Source: a virus | Taxonomy: Duplodnaviria; Heunggongvirae; Uroviricota; Caudoviricetes | DNA length: 15,856 nt | Direction: 5' to 3' (one strand) | Virus record (IMG/VR): IMGVR_UViG_2529292836_000010 | In this document: positions 7,207 to 15,856 of the stretch, piece after piece | How positions within the stretch are numbered: the first letter of the stretch is position 1 | How the letters are laid out: the number at the start of each line of letters is the position of its first letter | Made by a program: the position numbers and the translations under genes | Notes under the pieces: generated by a model | Told to the model about the DNA's origin: nothing | Seen by the model: the letters and a program-made list of their open reading frames with translations, nothing else | Databases searched by the model: none

Positions 7207-10200
7207 TTTGGGGATTGATGCGGCAGAGTTTAAAAATGAAATTCCCCGTATCAAAAACCTTCTGAATGGTGCCGCCAGCGATGCAGAACGGTCTTCTGCC
7301 CGTATGCAGCGTTTTATGGAGCGTCAGACTCAGGCCGCCCGGCAGACAACGCAGGCGGCTTCTTCGGCTGCAACAGCCGCCTCCGTCCATGCGCAGACGG
7401 TGGAGAAGAACGCACAGGCTCATGAACGCATGGCCCGCGAGGTGGAGAAAACCCGCCAGCGCATGGAGGCGCTGAGCCAGAAAATGCGCGATGAACAGGC
7501 GCAGGCCATGGCTCTGGCGGAGGCTCAGGATAAAGCGGCTGCTGCGTTTTATCGTCAGATTGACAGTGTGAAACAGGCCAGTGCGGGGCTGCAGGAATTA
7601 CAGCGTATTCAGCAGCAGATCCGACAGGCCAGAAACAGTGGCGGGATTGGTCAGCAGGATTATCTGGCGCTGATTTCTGAGGTTACGGCGAAAACCCGTG
7701 TTCTTACACAGGCTGAGGAAGAGGCTACCCGACAGAAAGTGGCGTTTATCCGTCAGCTTAAAGAGCAGGCAACCCGCCAGAATCTTTCTTCTTCTGAGTT
7801 GCTTCGTGCTAAGGCTGCCCAGCTGGGGGTAAGCAGTGCTGCAGAAGTGTATATCCGCAAAATGGAGCAGGCAGGAAAAGCCACGCATTCGCAGGGTCTG
7901 AAAAGTGCAGCGGCCCGCCAGGAGATAGGCGTTCTGATAGGTGAACTGGCTCGCGGCAATTTAGGTGCGCTGAGGGGATCCGGGATAACGCTGGCTAACC
8001 GTGCCGGATGGATAGACACACTGATGTCACCGAAAGGCATGATGCTGGGCGGGGTTATTGGCGGTATTGCCGCGGCCGTCTATGGTCTGGGTAAAGCCTG
8101 GTATGACGGTCAGAAGGAGGGGGAAGAATTTAACCGCCAGTTGTCGCTGACGGGGCATTATGCCGGAGTCACTGCCGGGCAGCTGTGGACGCTCAGTCGT
8201 GCTATTTCCGGGAATGGTATCACGCAACATGCTGCAGCCGGTGCGCTGGCTCAGGTGGTGGGGAGTGGTGCATTTCGTGGAAACGATATCGGTATGGTGG
8301 CGAGAGCTGCCGCACAGATGGAGCGATCGGTTGGCCAGTCGGTCAGCGATACCATAAGTCAGTTTAAGCGGCTGAAGGATGATCCTGTAAATGCCGCGAA
8401 GGCTCTGGACAATGAGCTGCATTTTCTTACTGCCACTCAGCTTGAGCAGATACGCGTCCTTGGGGAACAGGGGCGGTCCAGTGATGCGGCACGGATAGCC
8501 ATGTCTGCACTGGCAGAGGAAACCGGTCGGCGTACTGCGGATATTGATAATAACCTCAATGCGCTGGGCAGTACGCTGAAGTATCTGTCTGATTTATGGA
8601 GGCGTTTCTGGGATGCGGCCATGAATATTGGTCGTGAAGACTCGCTGGATGAACAGATTTCCGCTTTACAGGAGAAAGTGTCGCGGGCGAAAAGACTCCC
8701 CTGGACGGCATCATCTTCTCAGGTTGAGTACGATCAGCAGCGTCTTAACGAGCTTCAGGAGAAAAAACGCCAGAAGGATTTGCAGGATGCAAAAGAGCAG
8801 GCAGAGCGGAATTATCAGGAGCAACAGAAACGCCGTAATGCTGAAAATGCTGCACTGAACCGGATGAATGAAACGGAAGCAGCACGACATCAGCGTGAAA
8901 TTGCGCGTATTAATGCCATGCAGTACGCCGATCAGGCTGTCAGGGATGCGGCGATACAACGTGAAAATGAACGTTACGAGAAAGCCCTGGCATCCGGTAA
9001 GAAAAAAACACGCGAAACCCGTAATGATGAGGCCACCCGGTTATTGCTGCAGTACAGTCAGCAACAGGCACAGGTGGAAGGACAGATTGCTGCTGCAAGA
9101 CAGTCAGCAGGCATTGCCACTGACAGGATGACAGAAGCGCATAAACAGCTTCTGGCTCTGCAGCAGCGCATCAGCGATCTGGACGGGAAAAAACTGACGG
9201 CAGATGAAAAGAGTGTGCTGGCCCGTAAAGATGAACTGATTCAGGCACTGACGCTGCTGGATGTAAAACAGCAGGAGCTTCAGAAACAGACGGCACTCAA
9301 CGATCTGAAGAAAAAAACAATTCAGCTGACCAGTCAACTGGCTGAAGAAGAGCGCGCTCAGCGCCAGCAACATGACCTGGATATCGCCACGGTGGGTATG
9401 GGTGATCAGCAGCGGCAGCGATATCAGGTACAACTGAGTCTTCGCCAGAAATACCAGCAACAGCTGGAGCAGTTGAGGCGGGATAGTGAGCAGAAAGGAA
9501 CATATAACACGGATGACTACAGAAAGGCCGAGCAGGCGCTGACGGAGAGCCTGAACCGACAACTGAATGAGAATCGCCGTTATTGGCAACAGCTTGAAAT
9601 TGCTCAGGGTGACTGGAAAAACGGAGTCCTGCGTGCACTCCAGAATGTCACTGAGAAAGCGGATAACACAGCCGGGACAGTGGAACAGTTGTTCACGTCT
9701 GCGTTCAGTAGCATGAGTGACTGGCTGGCGACATTCTGTACTACAGGCAAACTCAATTTCAAATCCTTCACCTCTTCTGTGCTGTCAGATATGTCCAGAA
9801 TCATGGCTCAGATAGCTTTAATGAAAGCGGTAAAAGGTATTGCTTCCGCGCTGCCTTTTGATTTTGTAGCCAATGCTGATGGCGGTGTTTATCAGTCGGC
9901 TGATTTGAGTCGCTACAGTGGCACGGTGGTTAACCGTCCGACGTTTTTTGCTTTTGCAAAAGGCGCGGGTGTGATGGGGGAAGCTGGACCTGAAGCCATT
10001 CTGCCACTGCGTCGTGGTGCTGACGGTAAGCTGGGGGTTGTGGCGGATATTGGTGGTTCAGGTATGGCGATGTTTGCCCCGCAGTACAACATCGAGATCA
10101 ATAACGATGGCACGAACGGGCAGATAGGTCCGGCTGCCCTGAAGGTGGTTTATGACCTTGGGAAAAAAGCGGCAGCGGACTTTATGCAACAGCAGGCCCG

Positions 10201-10234
10201 TGATGGTGGTCGGTTAAGTGGAGCATATCGGTAA
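7178..10234 (+). CDS. H: Tail tape measure protein H-like (1018 aa)
   Basis: GGAGG at 7165-7169 lies 8 nt before ATG 7178. N-terminus MDQIANLVIDLGIDAAEFKNEI matches recalled lambda gpH MAEPVGDLVVDLSLDAARFDEQ. There is a long Q/R/E-rich coiled-coil centre, and the C-terminus INNDGTNGQIGPAALKVVYDL...DGG matches the gpH C-terminus. The track start 7148 is rejected. Confidence 0.9.
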   Translation: MDQIANLVIDLGIDAAEFKNEIPRIKNLLNGAASDAERSSARMQRFMERQTQAARQTTQAASSAATAASVHAQTVEKNAQAHERMAREVEKTRQRMEALSQKMRDEQAQAMALAEAQDKAAAAFYRQIDSVKQASAGLQELQRIQQQIRQARNSGGIGQQDYLALISEVTAKTRVLTQAEEEATRQKVAFIRQLKEQATRQNLSSSELLRAKAAQLGVSSAAEVYIRKMEQAGKATHSQGLKSAAARQEIGVLIGELARGNLGALRGSGITLANRAGWIDTLMSPKGMMLGGVIGGIAAAVYGLGKAWYDGQKEGEEFNRQLSLTGHYAGVTAGQLWTLSRAISGNGITQHAAAGALAQVVGSGAFRGNDIGMVARAAAQMERSVGQSVSDTISQFKRLKDDPVNAAKALDNELHFLTATQLEQIRVLGEQGRSSDAARIAMSALAEETGRRTADIDNNLNALGSTLKYLSDLWRRFWDAAMNIGREDSLDEQISALQEKVSRAKRLPWTASSSQVEYDQQRLNELQEKKRQKDLQDAKEQAERNYQEQQKRRNAENAALNRMNETEAARHQREIARINAMQYADQAVRDAAIQRENERYEKALASGKKKTRETRNDEATRLLLQYSQQQAQVEGQIAAARQSAGIATDRMTEAHKQLLALQQRISDLDGKKLTADEKSVLARKDELIQALTLLDVKQQELQKQTALNDLKKKTIQLTSQLAEEERAQRQQHDLDIATVGMGDQQRQRYQVQLSLRQKYQQQLEQLRRDSEQKGTYNTDDYRKAEQALTESLNRQLNENRRYWQQLEIAQGDWKNGVLRALQNVTEKADNTAGTVEQLFTSAFSSMSDWLATFCTTGKLNFKSFTSSVLSDMSRIMAQIALMKAVKGIASALPFDFVANADGGVYQSADLSRYSGTVVNRPTFFAFAKGAGVMGEAGPEAILPLRRGADGKLGVVADIGGSGMAMFAPQYNIEINNDGTNGQIGPAALKVVYDLGKKAAADFMQQQARDGGRLSGAYR

Positions 10235-10563
10235 TGGAGACGTTTCACTGGAAAGTGCGCCCGGATATGAATGTGGTATCAGAGCCGAAAGTGGTGACAG
10301 TGAAGCTGGGCGATGGTTATGAACAGCGTCGTGCGGCGGGACTGAATAACCAGTTGTCGACTTACAGCGTGACGATACGTGTTCGTAAATGTGAACACCC
10401 ATCTTTGAAAGCCTTTCTGGAACGGCACGGTGGCGTCCGCGCATTTCAGTGGACGCCACCTTATGACTGGAAGCCGATCAGGGTGGTTTGTCGTAAATGG
10501 TCGGCAAGCGTGGGGGCGCTGTGGGTAACCATAACGGCAGATTTTGAACAGGTCGTGGCATAG
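10234..10563 (+). CDS. M: Tail tip protein M-like (109 aa)
   Basis: METFHWKVRPDMNVVSEPKVVTVKLGDGYEQRR.AGLN..L.TYSVT...HGG...F.WTPPY.W...V.C.KWS matches recalled lambda gpM (MKTFRWKVKPGMDVASVP..GDGYSQRAPAGLNANLKTYSVT). The start overlaps the H stop (TAATG). Confidence 0.9.
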   Translation: METFHWKVRPDMNVVSEPKVVTVKLGDGYEQRRAAGLNNQLSTYSVTIRVRKCEHPSLKAFLERHGGVRAFQWTPPYDWKPIRVVCRKWSASVGALWVTITADFEQVVA

Positions 10564-10572
10564 GAGGCTCTG

Positions 10573-11271
10573 ATGCAGGATATTCCACAGGAAACACATC
10601 ATGAGACGACACGCCTCACTCAGTCAGCCCAGGTGGTGCTCTGGGAAATCGATCTGACAGAGGTCGGTGGTGAACGTTATTTTTTCTGTAATGAGCAGAA
10701 CGAAAAAGGTGAGCCGGTTACCTGGCAGGGGCGGCAGTATCAGGCATACCCCATTCAGGGGACAGGATTTGAACTGAACGGCAAGGGCAGTGCTGCCCGT
10801 CCGACACTGACGGTTTCTAACCTGCACGGTATGGTCACCGGGATGGCGGAAGATCTGCAGAGTCTGGTCGGCGGAACGGTGGTCCGGCGTAAGGTTTACG
10901 CCCGTTTTCTGGATGCGGTGAACTTCGTCAACGGAAACAGCGACGCCGATCCGGAGCAGGAGGTGATTAGCCGCTGGCGCATCGAGCAGTGCAGCGAACT
11001 GAGCGCGGTCAGTGCCTCCTTTGTACTGTCCACGCCGACTGAAACGGATGGTGCCGTTTTTCCGGGGCGCATCATGCTGGCTAATACCTGCACCTGGACC
11101 TATCGCGGTGATGAGTGCGGTTATAACGGTCCGGCGGTCGCGGATGAATATGACCAGCCGACGTCCGATATCACGAAGGATAAATGCAGCAAATGCCTGA
11201 GTGGCTGTAAGTTTCGCAATAATGTCGGCAACTTTGGCGGCTTCCTTTCCATTAACAAACTTTCGCAGTAA
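10573..11271 (+). CDS. L: Tail tip protein L-like with C-terminal Cys cluster (232 aa)
   Basis: GGAGG at 10562-10566 precedes ATG 10573. Essentially collinear with recalled lambda gpL (SAQVVLWEIDLTEVGGERYFFCNEQNEKGEPVTWQGRQYQAYPIQG...) and ends in the Cys-rich CSKCLSGCKF motif known to bind an Fe-S cluster. Confidence 0.9.
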   Translation: MQDIPQETHHETTRLTQSAQVVLWEIDLTEVGGERYFFCNEQNEKGEPVTWQGRQYQAYPIQGTGFELNGKGSAARPTLTVSNLHGMVTGMAEDLQSLVGGTVVRRKVYARFLDAVNFVNGNSDADPEQEVISRWRIEQCSELSAVSASFVLSTPTETDGAVFPGRIMLANTCTWTYRGDECGYNGPAVADEYDQPTSDITKDKCSKCLSGCKFRNNVGNFGGFLSINKLSQ

Positions 11272-11276
11272 ATCCC

Positions 11277-12028
11277 ATGACACAGACAGAATCAGCGATT
11301 CTGGCGCACGCCCGGCGATGTGCGCCAGCGGAGTCGTGCGGCTTCGTGGTAAGCACGCCGGAGGGGGAAAGATATTTCCCCTGCGTGAATATCTCCGGTG
11401 AGCCGGAGGCGTATTTCCGTATGTCGCCGGAAGACTGGCTGCAGGCAGAAATGCAGGGTGAGATTGTGGCGCTGGTCCACAGCCACCCCGGTGGTCTGCC
11501 CTGGCTGAGTGAGGCTGACCGGCGGCTGCAGGTGCAGAGTGATTTGCCGTGGTGGCTGGTCTGCCGGGGTGAGATTCATAAATTCCGCTGTGTGCCGCAT
11601 CTCACCGGGCGGCGCTTTGAGCACGGGGTGACGGACTGTTACACGCTGTTCCGGGATGCTTACCATCTGGCGGGGATTGAGATGCCGGATTTTCATCGTG
11701 AGGATGACTGGTGGCGTACGGTCAGAATCTCTATCTGGATAATCTGGAGGCACAGGGCTTATCAGGTGCCGTTGTCAGCGGCGCAGCCGGGCGATGTGCT
11801 GCTGTGCTGTTTTGGTTCATCGGTGCCGAATCATGCCGCTATTTACTGCGGCGACGGCGAGCTGCTGCACCATATTCCTGAACAACTGAGAAACGAGAGA
11901 GGTATACCGACAAATGGCAGCGACGCACACACTCCCTCTGGCGTCACCGGGCATGGCCGCATCTGCCTTTACGGGGATTTGCAACGATTTGGCCGCCGCA
12001 TCGACCTTCGTGTGAAAACGGGGGCTGA
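11277..12028 (+). pseudogene. K: Tail tip assembly protein K-like (JAMM/MPN plus NlpC/P60 domains), apparently frame-disrupted
   Basis: JAMM motif E..HSHPGGLPWLSEAD and NlpC/P60 Cys/His contexts (GVTDCYTLF, NHAAIY) are present. Around 11715-11765 the ORF frame reads the atypical WRTVRISIWIIWRHRA, whereas an alternate frame gives the lambda-like GQNLYLDNLEAQGL. Downstream, the frame-0 ORF no longer stops at the expected K end (frame-2 TGA at 12026-12028) but reads on into I. Confidence 0.7.
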
Positions 12029-12556
12029 AGCCATCCGGGCGCTGGCCACACAGCTCCCGGCGTTTCGTCAGAAACTGAATGACGGCTGGTATCAGGTGCG
12101 CATTGCCGGGCGTGATGCAGGCGAAACCGAATTATCTGCCCGTCTTAATGAGCCGCTGGCAAATGGTGCCGTGATCCATATCGTGCCGCGTCTGGCGGGA
12201 GCTAAAAGTGGCGGTGTGTTTCAGGTGGTGCTGGGGGCGGCGTTGATTGCGGTGGCATGGTGGAACCCTGTGGGCTGGCTGGGTGCCGCGGCTGTATCGG
12301 GATGTATGCGCAGGGGCCAGTATGATCCTGGGGGTGTGGCGCAGATGCTGGCACCGAAAGCCAGGACGCCACGGCAGCCAGTACAGATAACGGCAAACAG
12401 AACACCTATTTCTCCTCACTGGATAACATGGTTGCCCAGGGCAATGTTCTGCCGGTTCTGTACGGTGAAATGCGCGTGGGGTCGCGGGTGGTTTCTCAGG
12501 AGATCAGCACGGCAGACGAAGGGGATGGTGGTCAGGTTGTGGTGATTGGTCGCTGA
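11914..12556 (+). pseudogene. I: Tail tip assembly protein I-like, split over three reading frames
   Basis: ATG 11914 gives MAATHTLPLASPGMA, matching the recalled gpI N-terminus, then a stop after 33 codons. The next gpI block (RICLYGDLQRFGRRIDLRVKTGAEAIRALATQLPAFRQ...GGVAQMLAPKARTPR) is in frame 0, fused to the K ORF. The last block (DNGKQNTYFSSLDNMVAQGNVLPVLYGEMRVGSRVVSQEISTADEGDGGQVVVIGR*) is in frame 2 and ends at 12554-12556. Confidence 0.7.
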
Positions 12557-12574
12557 TGAAAAACGTTTATGTGA

Positions 12575-12594
12575 AACCGCCTCCGGGCGGTTTT
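12575..12594 (+). terminator. Terminator-like hairpin in the I-J intergenic region
   Basis: 7-bp stem AACCGCC (12575-12581), loop TCCG, GGCGGTT (12586-12592), followed by a T-rich tract (ttttgtcgttt). It lies in a 59-nt gap before the J SD (GGAG at 12604-12607). Confidence 0.3.
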
Positions 12595-12615
12595 GTCGTT
12601 TATGGAGCGTGACGA

Positions 12616-15856
<3,241 letters not shown>

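What the first reader, a model, noticed from the sequence alone, without database searches (positions are those of the whole stretch)
11715..11765. Compensated frameshift patch inside K
For about 14 codons the ORF frame gives WRTVRISIWIIWRHRA, a Trp/Ile-rich string unlike the flanking conserved sequence, while an alternate frame over the same bases gives GQNLYLDNLEAQGL, which matches the K family. The frame is restored by further nearby length changes (net loss of about 3 nt), so the ORF stays open but a segment between the MPN and NlpC/P60 domains is scrambled.
Basis: partly seen in the sequence, partly recalled or inferred. Interest (0 to 1): 0.5.

Follow-up and report, generated by a model that had tools for sequence, protein, structure and literature searches.

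The report
Assembly artefact in prophage tail gene
The scrambled 14-residue stretch in the phage tail gene K is real in the deposited sequence, but it is almost certainly an assembly error: reads from two near-identical prophages in one E. coli strain were merged and the bases where they differ were dropped.

Summary
At 11712-11759 the ORF reads WRTVRISIWIIWRHRA, while the shifted frame gives the normal K sequence. The cause is three 1-base deletions (after 11717, 11750, 11759; net -3).

It is not an isolated compensated event. The window is the whole contig AQEB01000008.1 of draft ETEC genome 2731150 (100-bp Illumina reads, Celera Assembler).
- Against the nearest complete genome (NCCP 13717), bases 1-11716 show 0 indels and 3 mismatches.
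- Bases 11717-14772 carry 61 deleted bases and 0 insertions. These break K again at 11890 and 11957, and also break I and J.
- The 422-aa "open ORF" is a K/I read-through chimera.

NCCP 13717 has a second prophage with a colinear K-I-J. The two copies differ at 188 sites. At those sites the window has the copy-1 base 84 times, the copy-2 base 51 times and a deletion 53 times, and never a third base. Parentage switches 28 times, within 1-8 bp at the shortest. So 53 of the 61 deleted bases sit on copy differences, against a mean of 4.8 and a maximum of 9 in simulations.

Restoring the missing bases gives intact K and I genes and an open J frame. None of 7,557 K copies in complete E. coli genomes has these deletions.

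Verdict: collapsed-repeat consensus artefact, not biology.

The parts
11712..11759 (+). The reported patch: 16 codons of the deposited ORF reading WRTVRISIWIIWRHRA. 14 residues replace the 15 residues NGQNLYLDNLEATGL of intact K.
11717..11718 (+). Missing base 1 of the patch. References have GT[A/C]AC. Copy 1 of NCCP 13717 has A and copy 2 has C.
11750..11751 (+). Missing base 2 of the patch. References have GGC[C/A/G]AC. Copy 1 has C and copy 2 has A.
11759..11760 (+). Missing base 3 of the patch. References have CT[G/A/T]TA. Copy 1 has G and copy 2 has A. The K frame is restored here.
11277..12015 (+). Gene K (tail tip assembly protein, Prok-JAB + NlpC/P60) as deposited. It lacks 5 bases (11717, 11750, 11759, 11890, 11957). 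Restoring them gives an intact 247-aa K with 2 aa differences from WP_032311100.1.
11914..12556 (+). Gene I (tail assembly protein I) as deposited. It lacks 5 bases (11957, 12301, 12309, 12332, 12368). The repaired product is identical to WP_000741576.1.
11277..12545 (+). The 422-aa ORF annotated in GenBank as EMW90665.1. It is a K/I read-through chimera produced by the deletions, and is a singleton cluster in the 15-billion-protein collection.
12616..15856 (+). Gene J (tail tip protein), running off the contig end. 51 bases are missing, and the J frame has 26 stops as deposited. After repair with copy-1 bases it is open over 1097 codons.
11699..14826 (.). Chimeric tract. Every informative site carries the allele of prophage copy 1, the allele of copy 2, or a deletion. 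All 61 deletions lie in 11717-14772. In 14147-14563 every differing site is deleted.
1..11698 (.). Clean, copy-1-specific part of the contig (head genes, tail shaft, TMP, M, L, 5' end of K). It has 0 indels and 4 mismatches to NCCP 13717, the fourth at 11443. In gene L the two prophage copies are only 88.5% identical, and the window follows copy 1 at 81 of 81 informative sites.

Best explanation
The patch is a consensus artefact of a collapsed repeat in a short-read draft assembly.

Strain 2731150 most likely carries, like its nearest complete relative NCCP 13717, two lambdoid prophages whose K-I-J tail-tip modules are colinear and about 94-97% identical. Their upstream genes are more diverged (L is 88.5% identical). 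The contig was seeded in the unique head and tail-shaft genes of copy 1. From about 11699 onward, 100-bp reads from both copies were piled into one multiple alignment.

At each column where the copies differ, the consensus caller chose base 1, chose base 2, or called a gap. A gap call is expected when the two alleles were placed in separate half-occupied columns. In the K patch, three of four neighbouring differing columns were dropped, which by arithmetic restores the frame.

Shown: the deletion-only profile; its confinement to the shared module; the coincidence of deletions with inter-copy differences; the site-by-site chimerism; the intactness of all three genes once the bases are restored; the uniqueness of the sequence; and the sequencing and assembly method.

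Inferred: that 2731150 itself has both prophages, and the exact step of the consensus algorithm that emits gaps.
For: 1. Provenance. The window is the entire 15,856-bp contig AQEB01000008.1 of GCA_000354895.2, E. coli 2731150. That strain was sequenced with HiSeq 2000 100-bp reads and assembled with Celera Assembler (PMC5469772).

2. Error profile against NCCP 13717. Bases 1-11716 have 0 indels and 3 mismatches. Bases 11717-14772 have 61 deleted bases and 0 insertions. Bases 14773-15856 have 0 indels. The same 61 deletions appear against every reference tried.

3. Second copy. NCCP 13717 holds a second prophage, and its J is the best match to window 13452-14006.

4. Two-template alignment of window 11277-15856. 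The copies differ at 188 of 4641 columns. At those columns the window has the copy-1 allele 84 times, the copy-2 allele 51 times, a deletion 53 times and a third base 0 times. Only 8 deleted bases lie at identical columns, and there are only 2 novel substitutions.

5. Controls. In 25 simulations of 61 random deletions, a mean of 4.8 and a maximum of 9 fell at differing sites. Hypergeometric p is about 1e-68. There are 28 parental switches among 95 retained informative sites, some 1-8 bp apart.

6. Independent panel of 10 alleles. 35 of 61 deleted columns are polymorphic against a 10.7% background (binomial p 8e-19). Simulations gave a mean of 14% and a maximum of 21%.

7. Repair. Restoring the bases gives an intact K, an I identical to a RefSeq protein, and an open J. 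There are no other lesions.

8. Uniqueness. The best of 7,557 K places in 4,082 complete E. coli genomes is 101/104, so none has even one of the three deletions. There are 0 exact matches in GTDB species representatives or IMG/VR. The ORF product is a singleton cluster.

9. Repeat context. K-I-J is multi-copy, with a median of 3 places per genome, mostly 95-99% identical. The upstream TMP-M-L stretch is mostly 90-95% identical. This fits collapse starting only in K.
Against: - The reads (SRR446754) could not be inspected, so elevated depth and two haplotypes in the tract are predicted, not shown.
- The two templates come from NCCP 13717, not from 2731150 itself.
- 8 of the 61 deleted bases (for example 11957 and 12565) are at sites where the two NCCP 13717 copies agree. 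They need a third copy (NCCP 13717 has three places), strain-specific differences, or another cause.
- I did not verify from documentation that the Celera consensus emits gaps at split columns.
- The prophage is defective (terminase truncated by an IS66-family element), so real decay of tail genes is not excluded a priori.
Confidence: 0.94

Rival explanations
1. The deletions are genuinely in the DNA of strain 2731150. The tail-tip genes of an already defective prophage are decaying, and the K patch is a real compensated frameshift.
For: The prophage has lost most of its terminase gene to an ISCro1 insertion, so selection on tail genes may be relaxed. A sister genome has an internal stop in gene U.
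Against: - There are 61 deletions, 0 insertions and only 2 novel substitutions in 3 kb, next to 11.7 kb with 3 substitutions and no indel. Neutral decay would not be this localised or deletion-only.
- 53 of the 61 deletions fall exactly on inter-copy differences.
- Once the bases are restored, the genes have no stops and almost no amino-acid changes.
- No other genome shares any of the three patch deletions.
Confidence: 0.02
2. A genuine recombinant between the two prophages, made by gene conversion, in which repair of heteroduplex mismatches left a fine mosaic and 1-base deletions at the mismatched sites.
For: The tract is a mosaic of the two copies, and the deletions sit at former mismatch positions. 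A heteroduplex model would also place them there.
Against: - No known mismatch-repair pathway deletes the mismatched base (general knowledge, not tested).
- Parental switches 1-8 bp apart, 28 of them in 3 kb, are far finer than known conversion tracts.
- In 14147-14563 every one of 32 differing sites is deleted, which looks algorithmic.
- The product would be a non-functional K, I and J, seen in no other of 4,082 genomes.
Confidence: 0.02
3. Ordinary random sequencing or base-calling errors (low coverage, homopolymer slips) unrelated to paralogous copies.
For: A few deletions are in 2- to 4-base runs, for example AA at 11717, CC at 11750 and TTTT at 12565.
Against: - Most deleted bases are not in homopolymers.
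- Illumina chemistry rarely gives indels (general knowledge), and the platform is stated in PMC5469772.
- The errors are confined to the repeat-shared 3 kb and coincide with inter-copy differences far above random expectation.
- The retained bases alternate between the two copies.
Confidence: 0.02

Closest known systems
Bacteriophage lambda gpK / 'C40 family peptidase' tail tip assembly protein (Prok-JAB + NlpC/P60) of mEp460/cdtI-like lambdoid prophages
   Same: It has the same position (L-K-I-J), the same two Pfam domains, and 97-98% nucleotide identity to K of mEp460, EC93 and NCCP 13717. After the 5 missing bases are restored, the product is a normal 247-aa K.
   Different: As deposited, the frame is shifted over aa 147-160, then lost at 11890 and 11957. 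The NLPC_P60 match is truncated (profile 1-81 of 105), and the ORF runs on into I.
Collapsed-repeat mis-assembly: reads of diverged repeat copies merged into one consensus (described for example in Phillippy, Schatz and Pop 2008, 'Genome assembly forensics', cited from memory, not read here)
   Same: The contig is bounded by repeats, with an IS66-family element at the 5' end and the variable part of J at the 3' end. The consensus is a column-wise mixture of two copies, and the errors are restricted to the shared segment.
   Different: The usual signature is correlated SNPs in the pile-up with a majority base in the consensus. Here about 28% of the differing columns (53 of 188) were emitted as gaps, giving a deletion-only profile. 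The pile-up itself was not seen.
Genuine compensated frameshifts in protein evolution (paired indels that leave a short out-of-frame segment)
   Same: A short out-of-frame segment is flanked by in-frame conserved sequence, with a net length change that is a multiple of 3.
   Different: Real cases are inherited and found in several related genomes. This one is unique to one draft contig, is followed by further uncompensated shifts in the same gene, and coincides with paralogue differences.
P0061 = ECZU29_62970, a 75-aa K fragment from another E. coli assembly
   Same: It contains TVRISIWIIWR, the same alternative-frame translation of the conserved K DNA.
   Different: The frameshift has a different breakpoint (after ...EMPDF), it is never compensated, and it comes from an unrelated record. 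It shows only that this peptide appears whenever K is read out of frame.

Membership tests
Lambda gpK-type tail tip assembly protein | Prok-JAB (MPN) domain followed by an NlpC/P60 domain | tested here: met
   PF14464 matches aa 3-105 (E 1.2e-13). PF00877 matches aa 111-200 (E 8e-10), but is truncated at profile position 81 of 105 in the deposited ORF. It is complete (aa 111-224) in the reference K.
Lambda gpK-type tail tip assembly protein | Gene order L-K-I-J, with K and I overlapping in different frames | tested here: met
   The annotated neighbours in L001-L004 and lambda, and the Pfam calls on the source contig, agree.
Lambda gpK-type tail tip assembly protein | Uninterrupted ORF of about 247 codons (199 as annotated in lambda) | tested here: not met
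   Five missing bases shift the frame. The ORF is intact only after in-silico repair.
Evolutionarily real compensated frameshift | The same out-of-frame segment is present in independent, trusted genomes | tested here: not met
   The best of 7,557 places in 4,082 complete genomes is 101/104 with all three bases present. There are no exact matches in GTDB representatives or IMG/VR. The protein is a singleton cluster. No hit carries the compensated patch.
Evolutionarily real compensated frameshift | The rest of the gene remains in frame and functional | tested here: not met
   The K frame is lost again at 11890 and 11957.
Collapsed-repeat consensus artefact | The region is multi-copy and highly similar within related genomes, while the flanks are more diverged | tested here: met
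   NCCP 13717 has 3 places. Copies 1 and 2 are 94-97% identical in K-I-J and 88.5% identical in L.
Collapsed-repeat consensus artefact | The consensus is a site-wise mixture of the copies, with errors located at the sites where the copies differ | tested here: met
   At the 188 differing sites the outcome is 84 copy-1 alleles, 51 copy-2 alleles, 53 deletions and 0 third bases. There are 28 parental switches. Simulations placed a mean of 4.8 of 61 deletions at differing sites.
Collapsed-repeat consensus artefact | Short reads and an overlap-consensus assembler | tested here: met
   HiSeq 2000 100-bp reads and Celera Assembler; strain 2731150 = AQEB00000000, reads SRR446754 (PMC5469772).
Collapsed-repeat consensus artefact | Roughly doubled read depth and two haplotypes in the pile-up over the tract | not testable with these tools

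The most novel reading that the evidence does not exclude
The 61 single-base deletions are physically present in strain 2731150. They would be the scar of an unusual recombination between two resident prophages, in which heteroduplex mismatches were resolved by excising the mismatched base. The result would be a fine mosaic with deletions at former mismatch sites.
Probability: 0.02. Interest if true: 0.55.

Novelty: not a real feature. Interest (0 to 1): 0.04.

Why it matters
Biologically it does not matter: K, I and J of this prophage are almost certainly intact in the cell.

Practically, there are three useful points:
- EMW90665.1 (the 422-aa 'lambda tail assembly I family protein') and the J fragments on this contig are artefactual database entries.
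- Deletion-only tracts that coincide with paralogue differences are a recognisable signature of collapsed prophage repeats. Other draft assemblies built the same way may carry them, though none was examined here.
- A 'compensated' frameshift should be checked against the indel pattern of the whole contig before being read as biology.

Tried and rejected
- A literature search for the strain number alone returned only unrelated papers. The strain was then found through the Bangladesh ETEC genomics paper.
- Exact-pattern scans for the 59-nt patch in GTDB species representatives and IMG/VR found nothing.
- The protein search with a 77-aa query around the patch returned only short fragments and not even the source protein, so it is a weak negative. 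Its one interesting hit, P0061, turned out to be an unrelated, uncompensated frameshift. The 'IWRHR' hits are the native K C-terminus.
- Multiple alignments (MAFFT) misplace gaps in the densest region, 14147-14563, and inflate 'novel' mismatches. I replaced them with a banded two-template dynamic-programming alignment plus simulations.
- The pair L003/L006 was first used as proxy parents. One search showed that the L006-type K and I proteins are exactly those of the second prophage of NCCP 13717, which made a same-genome test possible.
- Repairing J with L006 bases gave a stop at codon 622, probably from gap placement in a multi-base event. Repair with copy-1 bases gave a fully open frame.
- Homopolymer error, programmed frameshifting and true pseudogene decay were considered and rejected, for the reasons given under the rival explanations.

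Full report
**What is in the sequence**

ORF 11277-12545 (+, 422 aa) starts as a typical lambda-type K protein and reads ...EMPDFHREDDWWRTVRISIWIIWRHRAYQVPLSAAQPGDVLLC.... The string WRTVRISIWIIWRHRA is aa 146-161, nt 11712-11759. Frame 3 over the same bases reads GQNLYLDNLEAQGL.

The window lacks exactly three single bases, after 11717, 11750/51 and 11759. All seven references have them, and each gap falls in a column that is polymorphic among the references: A/C, G/C/A and G/A/T. The observation and the 'net -3' are therefore correct.

Two descriptive details are not correct.
- The patch lies inside the NlpC/P60 domain, not between the domains. In intact K, Pfam places NLPC_P60 at aa 111-224 and Prok-JAB at aa 3-105.
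- The K frame does not stay open. It is lost again at 11890 and 11957. After those two deletions the ORF is in the frame of gene I, which is why it runs for 422 codons and hits Lambda_tail_I at aa 228-309.

**Context**

The window is the late operon of an mEp460/cdtI-like lambdoid prophage. It holds the portal, a ClpP-protease/capsid fusion, tail shaft genes, the tape measure protein, M, L, K, I and J.

An exact protein look-up identified the 422-aa product as EMW90665.1. It is a singleton cluster seen on one 15,856-bp contig. That contig is AQEB01000008.1 of GCA_000354895.2, E. coli 2731150, and it is identical in length to the window.

Strain 2731150 is a Bangladeshi ETEC isolate (AQEB00000000, reads SRR446754). 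It was sequenced with HiSeq 2000 100-bp reads and assembled with Celera Assembler (PMC5469772).

**The patch is the first of many deletions**

Against the nearest complete genome, NCCP 13717 (99.3% identity over the whole window), the differences are distributed as follows:

| Window segment | Indels | Mismatches |
|---|---|---|
| 1-11716 | 0 | 3 |
| 11717-14772 | 61 deleted bases, 0 insertions | about 68 |
| 14773-15856 | 0 | 6 |

The same 61 deletions appear against every reference used. Most are not in homopolymers.
- Ten fall in K, I and the I-J spacer: 11717, 11750, 11759, 11890, 11957, 12301, 12309, 12332, 12368 and 12565.
- 51 fall in J. In 14100-14620 the best genomes match 521 of 559 positions with no mismatches, so the window is the reference minus 38 bases.

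With a run of -1 deletions, every third one restores the frame. This also happens in I at 12301/12309/12332. The 'compensation' in K therefore needs no selection.

When the missing bases are put back:
- K is an intact 247-aa protein with 2 aa differences from WP_032311100.1.
- I is identical to WP_000741576.1.
- J is open over all 1097 codons to the contig end.

Apart from the missing bases there are no lesions.

**Is the patch found anywhere else?**

A 101-nt query across the patch hit 7,557 places in 4,082 complete E. coli genomes. The best identity is 97.1%, which is 101/104, so none carries even one of the three deletions. The exact 59-mer is absent from GTDB species representatives and from IMG/VR.

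A protein search around the patch found no K with the compensated segment. One 75-aa fragment from another assembly (P0061, ECZU29_62970) contains TVRISIWIIWR. It arises from a different frameshift after ...EMPDF that is never corrected. It shows only that this peptide is the alternative-frame reading of conserved K DNA.

**Mechanism**

In a panel of ten homologous K-I-J alleles, 35 of the 61 deleted columns are polymorphic, against a 10.7% background (binomial p about 8e-19). Thirty simulations with random deletions, re-aligned the same way, gave a mean of 14% and a maximum of 21%.

The best match to the deletion-free segment 13452-14006 is a second prophage in the same NCCP 13717 genome, at 2.845 Mb rather than the cognate copy at 3.00 Mb. 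I fetched that copy as L014. Its K and I proteins are the same accessions as in ETEC 203740.

Copies 1 and 2 are colinear without indels and differ at 188 of 4,641 columns from the K start onward. A two-template alignment of window 11277-15856 gave these outcomes at the 188 sites:
- the copy-1 base at 84,
- the copy-2 base at 51,
- a deletion at 53,
- a third base at 0.

Only 8 deleted bases lie at columns where the copies agree. There are only 2 novel substitutions (11443, 12559) and no insertions.

In 25 simulations of 61 random deletions in a random chimera, a mean of 4.8 and a maximum of 9 fell on differing columns. Hypergeometric p is about 1e-68.

Among 95 retained informative sites between 11699 and 14826, parentage switches 28 times, at distances down to 1-8 bp. 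In 14147-14563 all 32 differing sites are deleted.

Upstream, in gene L, the two copies are only 88.5% identical, and the window follows copy 1 at 81 of 81 sites. Across genomes, K-I-J is multi-copy (median 3 places) and mostly 95-99% identical, whereas the TMP-M-L stretch is mostly 90-95% identical.

In the patch itself the two copies differ at four neighbouring sites. Three were dropped (11717, 11751, 11759). At the fourth (11754) the copy-1 base was kept. The two preceding informative sites (11699, 11701) carry copy-2 bases.

**Interpretation**

The contig is anchored in the copy-specific head and tail-shaft genes. From about 11699 it becomes a column-by-column consensus of reads from two, possibly three, co-resident prophage copies. 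Differing columns were resolved to either base or to a gap. This is a collapsed-repeat consensus artefact.

The coincidence of deletions with inter-copy differences and the fine chimerism are shown. That strain 2731150 itself holds both copies, and the exact consensus step that emits gaps, are inferred. The read pile-up was not available.

**Rivals**

- Real pseudogene decay is contradicted by four things: the deletion-only, sharply localised profile next to 11.7 kb of near-identity; the lack of other lesions; the coincidence with paralogue differences; and the absence from all other genomes.
- A real gene-conversion mosaic with deletions at heteroduplex mismatches would place deletions at the same sites. 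It requires an unknown repair outcome and implausibly fine switching. I give it about 2%.
- Random sequencing error does not explain the site specificity or the chimerism.

**Verdict**

The feature is an artefact of the deposited draft assembly, so interest is very low.

The decisive test is to map SRR446754 to the contig and to the two copies. The prediction is about double depth, two haplotypes and no reads lacking the bases. Alternatively, sequence across K from copy-specific primers in L.

Noticed in passing
window 1-300: The contig starts inside the 3' end of an IS66-family ISCro1 transposase gene (ORF 9-194). This is followed by an 84-nt remnant of the terminase large-subunit gene. The prophage is therefore defective (terminase truncated by the IS) in this lineage, in NCCP 13717 and in L5_E1779. 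Only records with this IS junction match window 1-223.
   Followed up: partly
window 12301-12332 (gene I): A second 'compensated' triple of 1-base deletions (12301, 12309, 12332) scrambles a short stretch of I...AVSGCMRRGQYDPGGVAQML instead of ...AVSGMYAAGASMILGGVAQML. All three are at copy-1/copy-2 differences, so the mechanism is the same as in the K patch.
   Followed up: yes
window 14147-14563 (gene J): This is the densest error cluster: 38 bases are missing in about 420 nt, and every one of the 32 sites where the two prophage copies differ is deleted. The deposited annotation places spurious antisense genes here (L005 12925-13335 and 13470-13637, which are window 14201-14611 and 14746-14913, minus strand) and splits J into five pieces.
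   Followed up: yes
P0061 (ECZU29_62970, another E. coli assembly): A 75-aa 'hypothetical protein' that is K read out of frame from ...EMPDF onward (IVRMTGGVTVRISIWIIWRRRAVSG...). It is an independent, uncompensated frameshift or mis-call in another record.
   Followed up: partly
L004 5466-5867 (L5_E1779_ETEC, same prophage): The tail terminator gene U is annotated as a pseudogene with an internal stop in this complete genome. It may be a genuine lesion in the same IS-disrupted prophage.
   Followed up: no
window 6840-6880 (end of G / start of T): The G-T junction reads ...ACG CCG GAA AAG TCC TGA. The lambda slippery heptamer GGGAAAG is not here; in the window it occurs only at 4451 and 11365. 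The site used for the expected G-T -1 frameshift in this phage group was not examined.
   Followed up: no
window 1962-3989: A single 675-aa gene fuses a ClpP-like prohead protease to a major capsid protein domain (PF00574 + PF25209). This is typical of this mEp460/cdtI-like group and intact here.
   Followed up: no
window 11957, 12565, 14178, 14201, 14368, 14406, 14443, 14454: Eight deleted bases lie where the two NCCP 13717 copies agree. They may reflect a third K-I-J copy (NCCP 13717 has three places) or strain-specific differences. Lambda has G where the panel has A at the 11957 site (the lambda base is from memory).
   Followed up: no
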